Virus record (IMG/VR): IMGVR_UViG_3300013126_005437
Span: 1 to 22,232 of that record
Reading direction: 5' to 3' (one strand)
Source: a virus
DNA length: 22,232 nt
The notes under the pieces are model-generated. The model made no database searches, was not told the origin of the DNA, and saw only the letters and a program-made list of their open reading frames with translations. Below, in pieces: positions 14,880 through 15,236 of the stretch. Numbering within the stretch: position 1 is the first letter of the stretch; every line of letters starts with the position of its first letter. The position numbers and the translations under genes are program-made.

Positions 14880-15236
14880 ATGAAATAGGTTAATCAAAAA
14901 TTAGTTTCAATCACCAGGCGTGATTTAATCCCCGGTTCTCAAGCCGTTCAAGCTGCCCACGCAGCAATTGATTTCCAACATCAATATCCTACAATTGCTC
15001 AACACTGGAATAAAAATTCCAATTATCTTATTTTTCTCTCTGTCGAGAATGAGCAAGAACTCAAAAGGTTTATTCAAAAATTTCAAATTTACGATCTCAA
15101 GCATACTGTTTTTGTCGAACCCGATTTAGACAATCAGATCACTGCGGTATGTGTCGAGCCATCCGAAAGAACTCAAAAATTATGTTCTCATTTACCCTTG
15201 GCCCTCAGATTTAACGAGGCTTTAACGCAAGTGTAA
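14880..15236 (+). CDS. peptidyl-tRNA hydrolase PTH2-like protein; the only ATG-initiated reading requires an in-frame TAG at codon 3 (14886-14888)
   Basis: MK(TAG)VNQKLVSITRRDLIPGSQAVQAAHAAIDF parallels PTH2 N-terminus ([25 protein letters not shown]); 119 codons to TAA; no alternative in-frame ATG/GTG/TTG upstream of the conserved block. Confidence 0.45.

What the first reader, a model, noticed from the sequence alone, without database searches (positions are those of the whole stretch)
14880..15236. PTH2-like peptidyl-tRNA hydrolase gene readable only through an in-frame TAG at codon 3
A 119-codon frame carries the conserved PTH2 N-terminal block (ITRRDLIPGSQAVQAAHAAIDF). It has a single possible start, ATG-AAA-TAG-GTT, and no in-frame ATG/GTG/TTG between the TAG and the conserved block. 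This is why the ORF track misses it. It lies 500 bp upstream of the CUA suppressor tRNA, which fits TAG being decoded as sense. However, flotillin and TROVE use TAG as the stop directly before a terminator. The recoding would therefore be partial, or readthrough would add short extensions of about 18-21 aa.
Basis: partly seen in the sequence, partly recalled or inferred. Interest (0 to 1): 0.65.

Follow-up and report, generated by a model that had tools for sequence, protein, structure and literature searches.

The report
Amber-gated peptidyl-tRNA hydrolase beside suppressor tRNA
A small tRNA-recycling enzyme gene can only be read if its third codon, a UAG stop, is decoded by the suppressor tRNA encoded 512 bases downstream, and this gene-plus-tRNA pairing recurs in giant phages of several bacterial phyla and in some bacterial chromosomes, which gives phage suppressor tRNAs a candidate target.

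Summary
Window 14880-15236 reads ATG-AAA-TAG-GTT and then a 115-residue PTH2-fold domain (Pfam 34.6 bits; AlphaFold pLDDT 92, TM 0.75 to archaeal Pth2). No canonical start follows the TAG. A tRNA-CUA lies 512 nt downstream on the same strand.

The TAG is not a one-off or an ordinary recoded Gln codon.
- Of 76 homologue clusters (~90% identity; 24-72% GC), 72 have an in-frame TAG just before the domain, usually 1-3 codons after an ATG.
- The base after the TAG is a purine in 71 of 72.
- The domains use 448 CAA/CAG and only 4 TAG.
- A same-strand tRNA-CUA lies within 4 kb in 69 of 80 IMG/VR loci.

The pair also occurs in cultured phages: mycobacteriophage Bxz1, Acinetobacter ME3 (100 kb checked is standard code), Pectobacterium CBB, Tenacibaculum pT24 and Xanthomonas XacN1. 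It also sits among ordinary chromosomal genes in a Nocardia isolate.

Best reading: the TAG is a gate that ties PTH2 synthesis to suppressor activity. Whether the enzyme clears readthrough damage or governs the suppressor tRNA is unresolved. I found no prior description. It is a new variant of suppressor-dependent expression, of high interest, and all evidence is computational.

The parts
14753..14791 (+). Intrinsic-terminator-like hairpin and T-run that ends the upstream vault-protein-like gene. It marks the 5' boundary of the PTH2 unit.
   Evidence: 13-pair stem, 7 G-C pairs, tail TTTTATTTTT; gene identity.
14817..14846 (+). Weak sigma-70-like promoter match upstream of the PTH2 start. It is only a consensus match.
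   Evidence: 9 of 12 positions; the number of matches in the region is not above the shuffled expectation.
14880..14885 (+). Two-codon leader ATG AAA, the only canonical start in the frame.
   Evidence: In 46 of 72 homologue clusters the leader is ATG plus one codon.
14886..14888 (+). In-frame TAG (the amber gate) at codon 3, followed by G.
   Evidence: Conserved in 72 of 76 clusters. The next base is A in 51, G in 20, C in 1 and T in none.
14880..15236 (+). PTH2-like peptidyl-tRNA hydrolase ORF: 118 sense codons if the TAG is read, then stop TAA.
   Evidence: Pfam PTH2 34.6 bits. PDB Pth2 profile matches at E = 4e-9. AlphaFold2 pLDDT 92.2. Foldseek TM 0.70-0.76 to 3erj, 2zv3 and 1q7s.
15388..15708 (+). 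106-aa ORF between PTH2 and the tRNA-CUA, function unknown. A homologous sequence follows PTH2 in the fused gene call P0030.
   Evidence: C-terminal half of P0030. No Pfam family.
15749..15824 (+). tRNA with anticodon CUA (amber suppressor): G1:C72, discriminator A73, anticodon loop CUCUAAA.
   Evidence: Rfam tRNA 58.7 bits; sequence. Among 75 distinct tRNA-CUA sequences near homologous PTH2 genes, 56 share the CUCUAAA loop.

Best explanation
The gene encodes a divergent PTH2-fold hydrolase whose synthesis is gated by an amber codon.

**Proposed mechanism.** Ribosomes start at ATG 14880 and meet UAG at codon 3. They continue into the enzyme only when the tRNA-CUA encoded 512 nt downstream decodes that UAG. 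Otherwise release factor 1 ends translation after a dipeptide. The amount of PTH2 therefore reports, and depends on, the level of UAG suppression in the cell.

**Why the gate sits at the very start.** Failure costs almost nothing there, and the residue inserted lies in a disordered tail, so its identity does not matter.

**Most likely purpose.** The gate supplies peptidyl-tRNA hydrolase capacity only when stop-codon readthrough is under way. Under readthrough, ribosomes run past UAG stops into terminators and mRNA ends, and peptidyl-tRNAs, including peptidyl-suppressor tRNA, are more likely to fall off.

**Shown.** The sequence anatomy, the PTH2 fold, the conservation of the TAG, its purine context, and the linkage to tRNA-CUA.

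**Inferred.** That the UAG is actually read by this tRNA, which amino acid is inserted, and what the enzyme hydrolyses.
For: 1. **No other way to translate the domain here.** No ATG, GTG or TTG lies after the TAG. The same holds in 55 of 72 TAG-bearing clusters.
2. **The TAG itself is conserved while its neighbours vary.** It is present in 72 of 76 clusters spanning 24-72% GC. The codons before and after it vary, and the leader length ranges from 1 to 4 codons in 65 of 72.
3. **It is not a generic Gln codon.** The domains hold 341 CAA and 107 CAG against 4 TAG. At the gate position no cluster has CAA or CAG.
4. **Context.** The base after the TAG is a purine in 71 of 72 clusters. From my own knowledge of E. 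coli context studies (Bossi 1983; Miller and Albertini 1983), a 3' purine favours amber suppression.
5. **tRNA linkage.** A tRNA-CUA on the same strand lies within 4 kb in 69 of 80 IMG/VR loci, and 7 of the 11 exceptions are truncated loci. Of 451 tRNAs in all loci, 109 are CUA. It is often the only tRNA present.
6. **The TAG must be read in some relatives.** Four clusters have a second in-frame TAG inside the folded domain, at polar columns.
7. **The gate tracks the ORF start, not the domain.** In the HD-like/PTH2 fusions of Stenotrophomonas CM1 and Xanthomonas XacN1 the PTH2 domain is C-terminal, yet the TAG is still at codon 3 of the whole ORF.
8. **The gated residue is structurally unconstrained.** It lies in a lower-confidence tail ahead of the first strand (residues 8-13; mean pLDDT 73 over residues 1-10).
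9. **The module exists where the rest of the genome is standard code.** Examples are ME3, Bxz1 and a Nocardia chromosome.
10. **Readthrough would create stalled ribosomes in this window.** The two TAG-terminated genes would be read into or past their terminators, giving mRNAs with no stop codon before the 3' end.
11. **Other rescue genes sit nearby.** A tmRNA gene lies next to the module in L017 and L112.
Against: - There is no expression or proteomic evidence. Readthrough is inferred.
- Some lineages have a canonical start soon after the TAG. In Bxz1 and Phabba a GTG directly follows it, 7 nt downstream of an A/G-rich GAAGG or GGAGG motif that I read by eye as a likely ribosome-binding site. 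An ATG lies 3-5 codons after the TAG in L112, L114, RaK2 and XacN1. In these the gate may be bypassed or vestigial.
- One 675-kb phage has TAA instead of TAG in the same leader (L063).
- Several relatives keep the adjacent tRNA-CUA but have no gate (L118 with TCG, L140, L147).
- A small hydrolase should be cheap to express. Simple clean-up on demand therefore explains the strong conservation of the gate less well than a true feedback loop would.
- The GKGK loop of archaeal Pth2 is missing, so the substrate may not be ordinary peptidyl-tRNA.
Confidence: 0.6

Rival explanations
1. Suppressor governor (negative feedback). The PTH2-like enzyme acts on the suppressor tRNA itself by hydrolysing the ester of charged or peptidyl tRNA-CUA. 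More suppression then makes more enzyme, which lowers suppression. The cassette holds UAG readthrough at a tolerable set-point. This shares the amber-gate step with the best explanation and differs in what the enzyme does.
For: - The PTH2/tRNA-CUA linkage is tighter than the gate itself. Gate-less relatives L118, L140, L142 and L147 still have the tRNA adjacent.
- The tRNA-CUA is often the only tRNA nearby.
- The cassette sits among ordinary genes in a Nocardia chromosome, where unchecked amber suppression would be harmful.
- Near-universal retention of the TAG is expected if the gate is the sensor of a feedback loop.
- The subfamily lacks the GKGK loop of archaeal Pth2, which hints at altered specificity.
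Against: - From my own knowledge, known Pth and Pth2 enzymes act poorly on aminoacyl-tRNA with a free amino group.
- No feature shared across the 75 tRNA-CUA sequences was found beyond an anticodon loop that their neighbouring tRNAs share. The acceptor stems and discriminator bases vary: 1:72 is G:C in 46 and C:G in 13; base 73 is A in 44, U in 14 and G in 9.
- No biochemical data exist.
Confidence: 0.2
2. Leader mini-ORF without suppression. ATG-AAA-TAG is a separate two-codon upstream ORF. PTH2 is translated by re-initiation at, or just after, the codon following the stop, and the tRNA-CUA is not needed.
For: - The codon after the TAG is ATT or ATA in 40 of 72 clusters and GTG in 3. These are known weak or normal start codons.
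- In Bxz1 and Phabba an A/G-rich GAAGG or GGAGG motif lies 7 nt upstream of the GTG that follows the TAG, which I read by eye as a likely ribosome-binding site.
- L112, L114, RaK2 and XacN1 have an ATG 3-5 codons after the TAG.
- L063 has TAA in place of TAG in an otherwise similar leader.
Against: - In this window the next codon is GTT, and no near-cognate start precedes the first beta strand.
- In 29 of 72 clusters the next codon (GTA, GTT, ACT, AAC, AAA, GGC, CTT and others) differs from AUG at two or three positions.
- Nothing in this model explains why the stop is TAG in 72 clusters, TAA in one and never TGA.
- It does not explain the adjacent tRNA-CUA.
- It does not explain the second TAG inside the domain in four clusters.
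Confidence: 0.1
3. Ordinary genome-wide recoding. The phage reads TAG as an amino acid throughout its late genes, and this TAG is simply one neutral sense codon that happens to fall early in PTH2.
For: - TAG-recoded phages with suppressor tRNAs are well documented.
- Some related loci have neighbouring genes with internal TAGs (46 of 295 long ORFs).
- Four PTH2 clusters have a second internal TAG.
Against: - The same position is TAG in 72 of 76 clusters and never CAA or CAG, while the domains use 448 CAA/CAG against 4 TAG.
- No other gene in the window has an internal TAG, and treating TAG as sense adds less ORF length than treating TGA or TAA as sense.
- The gate is present in phage ME3, whose 100 kb of structural and replication genes show no TAG-split ORF.
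- The recoded Lak phages have a divergent PTH2 without the gate.
Confidence: 0.04
4. Pseudogene or assembly error. The TAG is a recent inactivating mutation or a sequencing mistake.
For: A single in-frame stop at codon 3 is what a nonsense mutation would look like in isolation.
Against: The same feature appears in independent assemblies from many samples and in finished genomes of cultured phages. The rest of the ORF is intact and conserved.
Confidence: 0.01

Closest known systems
Archaeal and eukaryotic peptidyl-tRNA hydrolase 2 (Pth2, Pfam PF01981; for example A. fulgidus AF2095 3erj, M. jannaschii 2zv3, human Bit1 1q7s)
   Same: Same fold (TM 0.70-0.76). The match is above the Pfam cut-off. 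The R-x-D-L strand, the Q-x-x-H-A helix and an acidic residue (E80 of the EPD motif) align with the conserved Asp of the archaeal D-A-G motif.
   Different: Only 19-29% identity. It scores far below the NCBIfam Pth2 equivalog cut-offs (29 against 126 bits). The GKGK loop is absent. The gene carries an in-frame TAG at its start and travels with a tRNA-CUA.
PTH2 genes of jumbo phages, as catalogued by Iyer et al. 2021 (PMC7824862)
   Same: [quoted passage not shown]
   Different: Term searches of that paper found no mention of a suppressor, an in-frame TAG or a link to a suppressor tRNA. Many GenBank records miss or truncate the gene.
Stop-codon-recoded phages (code 15) and their 'code-change modules' (Borges et al., bioRxiv 10.1101/2021.08.26.457843; Lak phages; crAss-like phages)
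   Same: A phage-encoded tRNA-CUA, in-frame TAG codons that block translation until the suppressor is available, and early genes written in standard code.
   Different: There, many late and lysis genes carry TAGs scattered along their length, and the code-change genes themselves are in standard code. Here a single translation-related gene carries one TAG at a fixed position. The arrangement also exists in a phage whose checked modules are standard code (ME3) and in a bacterial chromosome. Term searches of that preprint found no mention of Pth, 'peptidyl' or 'hydrolase'.
prfB (release factor 2) autoregulation by an early in-frame UGA (from my own knowledge)
   Same: An in-frame stop codon early in a translation-factor gene acts as a sensor of how that stop codon is being decoded. 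It thereby sets the output of a protein that acts on the same process.
   Different: prfB passes its stop by +1 frameshifting and senses its own product directly. Here passage would be by a dedicated suppressor tRNA, and any feedback is unproven.
Streptomyces bldA tRNA-Leu(UAA) and TTA-containing target genes (from my own knowledge)
   Same: Expression of specific genes is made conditional on one dedicated tRNA through a codon that is otherwise avoided.
   Different: bldA reads a rare sense codon in many scattered targets. Here the codon is a stop, the target is one gene family, and tRNA and target are physically linked.
Phage lambda bar minigenes (AUG AUA UAA) and host pth (from my own knowledge)
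   Same: A two-codon ORF ending in a stop, of the type known to release peptidyl-tRNA and to stress peptidyl-tRNA hydrolase.
   Different: The bar minigenes are free-standing and act against pth-defective hosts. Here the mini-ORF is in frame with, and fused by readthrough to, a hydrolase gene.

Membership tests
PTH2 (Pfam PF01981) | Sequence match above the curated Pfam gathering score | tested here: met
   34.6 bits against a cut-off of 23, covering profile 3-112 of 115. A profile of 31 homologues hits PDB Pth2 chains at E = 4e-9 to 9e-6.
PTH2 (Pfam PF01981) | Alpha/beta Pth2 fold | tested here: met
   AlphaFold2 model with pLDDT 92.2 and pTM 0.85. Foldseek top 14 hits are all Pth2 or Bit1 family structures, TM 0.56-0.76, probability 1.00.
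PTH2 (Pfam PF01981) | Equivalence to archaeal Pth2 (NCBIfam equivalog models) | tested here: not met
   NF003314 scores 29.2 bits against a cut-off of 126. TIGR00283 scores 21.8 against 82. It is a divergent subfamily, not an equivalog.
PTH2 (Pfam PF01981) | Catalytic residues of archaeal Pth2: the Asp of the D-A-G motif and the Lys of the GKGK loop (recalled from work on S. solfataricus Pth2) | tested here: inconclusive
   Invariant E80 of the EPD motif aligns with the Asp. The GKGK loop is deleted in the whole subfamily. R13, D15, Q21, Q24 and H27 are invariant.
PTH2 (Pfam PF01981) | Hydrolysis of peptidyl-tRNA | not testable with these tools
   This needs an enzyme assay.
Genome-wide TAG recoding (code 15 phage) | Cognate suppressor tRNA encoded by the element | tested here: met
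   tRNA-CUA at 15749-15824.
Genome-wide TAG recoding (code 15 phage) | Many genes interrupted by in-frame TAG, with ORF length rising specifically when TAG is read as sense | tested here: not met
   Within this 22-kb window only PTH2 has an internal TAG. Reading TAG as sense adds less ORF length than reading TGA or TAA as sense. Late genes of this phage are outside the window, so the genome as a whole is untested.
Genome-wide TAG recoding (code 15 phage) | TAG aligns with Gln (CAA/CAG) in standard-code homologues | tested here: not met
   At the gate, homologues have TAG, never CAA or CAG. The few internal TAGs fall in mixed E/Q/D/T/K columns.
Upstream leader ORF with translational coupling | A usable start codon at or next to the leader's stop | tested here: not met
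   In the window the next codons are GTT AAT CAA AAA TTA GTT. Across the family, 29 of 72 clusters have no near-cognate codon after the TAG. The feature is met in some relatives, such as Bxz1 with GTG.
Suppressor-dependent (amber-gated) gene expression | In-frame UAG upstream of all functional sequence, no bypass start, and a cognate suppressor present | tested here: met
Suppressor-dependent (amber-gated) gene expression | Demonstrated readthrough product | not testable with these tools
   This needs proteomics, ribosome profiling or a reporter assay.

The most novel reading that the evidence does not exclude
The tRNA-CUA and the amber-gated PTH2-like hydrolase form a self-contained, mobile 'suppressor cassette'. 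The gate senses UAG readthrough, and the enzyme feeds back on the suppressor tRNA pool, either recycling or discharging it. The cassette thereby sets the level of stop-codon readthrough in the cell.

On this reading the PTH2 gene is the hitherto unidentified dedicated target of the amber suppressor tRNAs carried by standard-code jumbo phages. The cassette would also give some Actinomycetota a regulated natural amber suppressor.
Probability: 0.3. Interest if true: 0.9.

Novelty: new variant of a known kind. Interest (0 to 1): 0.8.

Why it matters
**An open question gains a candidate answer.** Suppressor tRNAs are common in large phages that do not otherwise use an altered genetic code, and their purpose has been unclear. 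The authors of the XacN1 genome reported that they could find no gene targeted by its two tRNA-CUA (PMC5852040). The phiKp24 authors said the role of its suppressor tRNA needs investigation (PMC8386662). A conserved amber codon at the start of a linked tRNA-recycling gene gives those tRNAs a concrete candidate target.

**It is directly testable.** Cultured phage-host pairs that carry the module include Bxz1 with M. smegmatis, ME3 with A. baumannii, CBB with Pectobacterium, pT24 with Tenacibaculum, and XacN1.

**It may describe a new small circuit.** A stop codon would act as a sensor that couples a translation quality-control enzyme to the state of the genetic code in the cell.

**It has a practical consequence for annotation.** Gene callers miss or truncate this gene in many deposited genomes.

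**It may reach beyond phages.** The cassette's presence in Nocardia and Streptosporangiaceae sequences suggests that regulated natural amber suppression occurs in cellular genomes too.

Tried and rejected
- **Nearby nucleotide matches.** Megablast of window 12000-17000 against GenBank phages found nothing, so no close cultured relative exists.
- **Apparent Gln in homologues.** I first took the 'Q' at position 3 of database homologues as evidence for Gln. The DNA shows TAG in the two proteins checked (P0007, P0015), so it was translated by an alternative-code gene caller and is not evidence.
- **Apparent gate-less controls.** Four distant homologues looked as if they lacked the gate. Three (P0087, P0089, P0092) have the TAG just upstream of the called start. 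I did not check the fourth (P0091).
- **Initiator tRNA starting at UAG.** Rejected. The window tRNA has G1:C72 and lacks three G:C pairs at the base of the anticodon stem, only 2 of 75 tRNA-CUA have a C:A 1:72 mismatch, and an ATG precedes the TAG almost everywhere.
- **tRNA-CUA as a mutated copy of the phage's tRNA-Gln.** Not supported. The two window tRNA-Gln genes have U1:A72 and different arms. The amino acid inserted stays unknown.
- **Readthrough-stimulating RNA structure near the TAG.** None found. The fold of 14860-14960 has a z-score of -0.13.
- **Known RNA families.** Rfam at gathering thresholds found only tRNAs in the window, and no ribozyme next to the tRNA-CUA.
- **Prior description.** Nine full-text searches and eight papers searched for key terms gave no report of a TAG in phage PTH2 or of a PTH2/suppressor-tRNA link.
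- **Amino-acid identity from internal TAG columns.** Inconclusive. The columns hold a mix of E, Q, D, T and K.
- **Scope of the ME3 scan.** I scanned only the first 100 kb of ME3 for other TAG-split genes, not the whole genome.
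Full report
**1. What is in the window**

Window 14880-15236 on the + strand reads ATG AAA TAG GTT AAT CAA AAA TTA GTT TCA ATC ACC AGG CGT GAT TTA and onward. It translates as MK*VNQKLVSITRRDLIPGSQAVQAAHAAIDF... and ends at TAA 15234-15236.

No ATG, GTG or TTG lies between the TAG and the end of the gene that would leave an ORF of 50 residues. The gene is therefore absent from the standard ORF list.

An intrinsic-terminator-like hairpin at 14753-14791 closes the upstream gene. 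A tRNA with anticodon CUA lies at 15749-15824 on the same strand, 512 nt after the stop.

**2. The protein is a real but divergent PTH2**

- The 115 residues after the TAG match Pfam PTH2 above its cut-off (34.6 against 23 bits).
- A profile of 31 homologues hits solved archaeal Pth2 and human Bit1 at E = 4e-9 to 9e-6.
- An AlphaFold2 model is confident (pLDDT 92.2). Its best structural matches are all Pth2-family proteins, with TM 0.70-0.76.
- It is not an equivalog of archaeal Pth2: NCBIfam scores are 29 against a cut-off of 126.
- The GKGK loop of the archaeal enzymes is missing, while an invariant Glu (E80 of the EPD motif) aligns with their conserved Asp.
- The first strand spans residues 8-13, and residues 1-10 are less confident (mean pLDDT 73). 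The residue encoded by the TAG therefore lies in an unconstrained tail.

**3. The TAG is conserved across the family**

- All 18 IMG/VR relatives found with the single protein carry an in-frame TAG a few codons after an ATG, just before the conserved K-L-x-V-I-T-R-R-D-L block.
- Database proteins show 'Q' at this position. In the two proteins whose contigs I checked (P0007, P0015) the DNA has TAG there.
- A profile search found 344 relatives in IMG/VR. Of the best 80, 79 have the TAG.
- I pooled 122 loci into 76 clusters at about 90% identity (44 clusters at about 70%). Of these, 72 have the TAG.
- The leader is ATG plus one codon in 46 clusters, plus two in 12, and plus three in 5.
- The base after the TAG is A in 51, G in 20, C in 1 and T in none.
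- 55 of the 72 have no canonical start between the TAG and the block.
- Only 13 of 295 neighbouring long ORFs have a TAG in their first ten codons (Fisher p = 8e-58).
- Inside the PTH2 domains, Gln is written CAA or CAG 448 times and TAG 4 times. At the gate no cluster has CAA or CAG.

The TAG itself, not an amino acid, is therefore what is conserved. The purine that follows it matches the context that favours amber suppression in E. coli. That last point rests on my own knowledge of the literature, not on a test here.

**4. Linkage to the suppressor tRNA**

A tRNA-CUA lies within 4 kb, always on the same strand, in 69 of 80 IMG/VR loci. Seven of the 11 exceptions are loci truncated within 700 nt of the gene. 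Of 451 tRNAs in all loci, 109 have the CUA anticodon.

Two layouts recur:
- the tRNA lies 0.4-2.5 kb downstream, as in this window;
- the tRNA lies 30-190 nt directly upstream of the PTH2 start.

Of the 75 distinct tRNA-CUA sequences, 56 have the anticodon loop CUCUAAA. This loop composition (C32, A37, A38) is also the commonest among the other tRNAs of these loci, so it is not specific to the suppressors. Their acceptor stems and discriminator bases vary, and the window's tRNA-CUA is not a copy of its two tRNA-Gln genes. I could not determine which amino acid is inserted.

**5. Reach beyond recoded metagenomic phages**

The module appears in the following cultured or finished phage genomes.

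| Genome | Sequence at the gate | tRNA-CUA |
|---|---|---|
| Mycobacteriophage Bxz1 and other cluster C phages (207 Mycobacterium phage records hold a PTH2 homologue; the five I inspected all carry the gate) | ATG TAG GTG or GTG TAG GTG | 130-300 nt downstream |
| Tenacibaculum phage pT24 | ATG AAA TAG ATA | 2.5 kb upstream |
| Acinetobacter phage ME3 | ATG ACT TAG ATT | 420 nt upstream |
| Pectobacterium phage CBB | ATG GCA CAA TAG AAT | about 3.6 kb downstream |
| Erwinia phage pEa_SNUABM_44 | ATG ACG CAC TAG AAT | about 3.2 kb downstream |
| Stenotrophomonas phage CM1 | ATG AAG TAG ACC | none within 4 kb |
| Xanthomonas phage XacN1 | ATG AAG TAG ACC | two copies elsewhere in the genome, per PMC5852040 |
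| Uncultured huge phages (462 kb and 735 kb) | ATG AAG TAG ATT; ATG TCG TAG ATT | 0.8 and 2 kb downstream |

Further points:
- ME3's first 100 kb holds its structural and replication genes, densely annotated in standard code. No ORF there is split by a TAG into two pieces of 60 or more codons. The gate therefore exists without recoding of that phage's structural and replication genes.
- In CM1 and XacN1 the PTH2 domain is the C-terminal half of a fusion with an HD-like domain. The TAG still sits at codon 3 of the whole ORF. This ties the gate to the start of translation rather than to the PTH2 coding sequence.
- A scan of species-representative genomes found the cassette in Actinomycetota. The leader is M-x-H-[R/T]-TAG, and the tRNA-CUA lies about 370 nt downstream and is the only tRNA in 8 kb. 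One case is a Nocardia isolate, where the neighbours are an MMPL transporter, a TetR regulator, a luciferase-like monooxygenase and a methyltransferase.
- More distant PTH2-like genes (24-29% identity) and a T4-like Aeromonas phage homologue have neither the gate nor the tRNA.
- A profile search of 1.84 billion representative proteins gives 1,698 clusters at E of 1e-10 or better.

**6. Exceptions that limit the claim**

- L063, a 675-kb phage, has ATG AAA GAA ACA TAA ATT. A TAA replaces the TAG, and no tRNA was detected within 4 kb.
- L118 has TCG at the gate position but keeps the tRNA-CUA.
- L140 and L147 keep an adjacent tRNA-CUA without a gate. In L142 an ATG directly precedes the domain, the nearest in-frame TAG lies 7 codons upstream of that ATG, and no ATG is seen in the 12 codons before that TAG.
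- Lak phages have a divergent PTH2 with neither feature nearby.
- In Bxz1 and Phabba the codon after the TAG is GTG, 7 nt downstream of an A/G-rich GAAGG or GGAGG motif that I read by eye as a likely ribosome-binding site.
- In L112, L114, RaK2 and XacN1 an ATG lies 3-5 codons after the TAG.

In these lineages the enzyme could be made without suppression. Conversely, four clusters carry a second TAG inside the folded domain, which must be read to give a full protein.

**7. Mechanism**

The best-supported reading is an amber gate. Translation starts at ATG 14880 and reaches the enzyme only if the tRNA-CUA decodes UAG at codon 3. PTH2 output then tracks suppressor activity.

Placing the gate at the start means a failed attempt costs only a dipeptide.

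In this window the two genes that end in TAG (Band_7 and TROVE) are followed by terminators, and the next in-frame stop lies at or beyond the terminator. Readthrough would therefore drive ribosomes to mRNA ends. That is a situation in which rescue factors and peptidyl-tRNA hydrolase are needed, a link that rests on established knowledge of tmRNA and Pth. A tmRNA gene sits beside the module in two relatives.

This supports a clean-up-on-demand purpose, but a cheap enzyme hardly needs such a strictly kept gate. The tight tRNA linkage, the chromosomal copies and the altered active-site loop keep a feedback model alive, in which the enzyme acts on the suppressor tRNA itself.

These readings share the gate and differ in the enzyme's substrate. 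I give the gate with clean-up about 0.6, the governor variant about 0.2, a suppression-independent leader ORF about 0.1, neutral recoding about 0.04, and pseudogene or error about 0.01.

**8. What is known and what is new**

PTH2 genes in jumbo phages were catalogued by Iyer et al. 2021 (PMC7824862). Stop-codon recoding with suppressor tRNAs as a timing device was proposed by Borges et al.. Term searches of these papers, and of the theta-ribozyme, Lak and huge-phage papers, found nothing on a TAG in PTH2 or on a PTH2/tRNA-CUA pair.

The XacN1 authors looked for targets of their two tRNA-CUA by reading through annotated amber stops and found none. The two-codon leader in front of their ORF364 would not have been an annotated gene.

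Nine full-text searches gave no prior description. The library covers only open-access papers and bioRxiv, so an earlier report elsewhere cannot be excluded. I therefore rate this as a new variant of suppressor-dependent gene expression. All the evidence is computational.

Noticed in passing
window 12255-14747, 16798-18534 and 28-1347: There is an 830-aa major-vault-protein-like gene (Pfam Vault_3 and MVP_shoulder), a TROVE/Ro60-like gene and a Band_7/SPFH gene in a tRNA-rich, phage-like window. TROVE/vWA_Ro60, Cpn10 and peptide deformylase also lie near PTH2 in L114 and L115, and Band_7 in L116. Vault- and Ro-type ribonucleoprotein genes seem to travel with this translation island.
   Followed up: partly
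window 6499-11666: An array of 14 tRNA genes is interspersed with small ORFs and homing-endonuclease-like genes: a NUMOD3 match at 9568-10179, and GIY-YIG plus NUMOD3 at 18550-19212 on the minus strand.
   Followed up: partly
window 15288-15305: A second mini-ORF, ATG AAA AAG CAC AAC TAG, lies between PTH2 and the next gene. Readthrough would add only four codons before a TAA.
   Followed up: no
window 15721-15741: A perfect 9-bp hairpin (GCATGGACA-TCT-TGTCCATGC) ends 7 nt before the tRNA-CUA. No Rfam family matched it.
   Followed up: partly
window 1345-1401 and 18532-18600: The Band_7 and TROVE genes end in TAG and are followed by terminator hairpins. The next in-frame stop lies at the end of the terminator (1399) or beyond it (18598). 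Amber suppression would therefore send ribosomes to the 3' ends of these mRNAs.
   Followed up: yes
GenBank records; loci L105, L124, L125, L126, L153: The PTH2 gene is unannotated in Erwinia pEa_SNUABM_12/19/44/47/49/50, Serratia BF, Yersinia fHe-Yen9-03/04 and one K64-1 record. It is annotated from a start downstream of the TAG in pT24, ME3, CBB and XacN1.
   Followed up: yes
L105 (pT24), L123 (CM1), L153 (XacN1): PTH2 is fused to a domain of about 190 aa with a weak HD-domain match (below the Pfam cut-off). The domain is C-terminal in pT24 and N-terminal in CM1 and XacN1.
   Followed up: partly
L138 (Nocardia sp. NPDC052566), L139, L141, L143, L145, L137, L116: High-GC Actinomycetota sequences carry a tRNA-CUA gene about 370 nt after a PTH2 gene with the leader ATG-CCN-CAC-CGN-TAG. 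In the Nocardia isolate the neighbours are ordinary chromosomal genes, so this may be a natural amber suppressor in a cellular genome.
   Followed up: partly
L063 3978-3995: A 675-kb phage has the same leader architecture, but with TAA in place of TAG (ATG AAA GAA ACA TAA ATT), and no tRNA within 4 kb.
   Followed up: partly
L017 1402-1776; L112 3950-4291: Phage tmRNA genes are predicted within a few kb of the PTH2/tRNA-CUA pair. L017 also has two tRNA-CUA genes.
   Followed up: no
L109 (LR756501, 735-kb phage) 4094; also L086, L093, L044: These four have a second in-frame TAG inside the PTH2 domain, at columns where homologues have E, Q, D, T or K. These phages must read TAG as sense within the enzyme.
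   Followed up: yes
L129 to L132, L142 (genome contigs): Several contigs filed under archaeal or bacterial MAG names (Pacearchaeota, Methanobacterium, Thermoplasmatota) are long, AT-rich and phage-like. L129 covers the same coordinates of a contig of the same length (425,361 bp) as the IMG/VR huge-phage locus L054, which suggests that the contig was mis-binned.
   Followed up: partly
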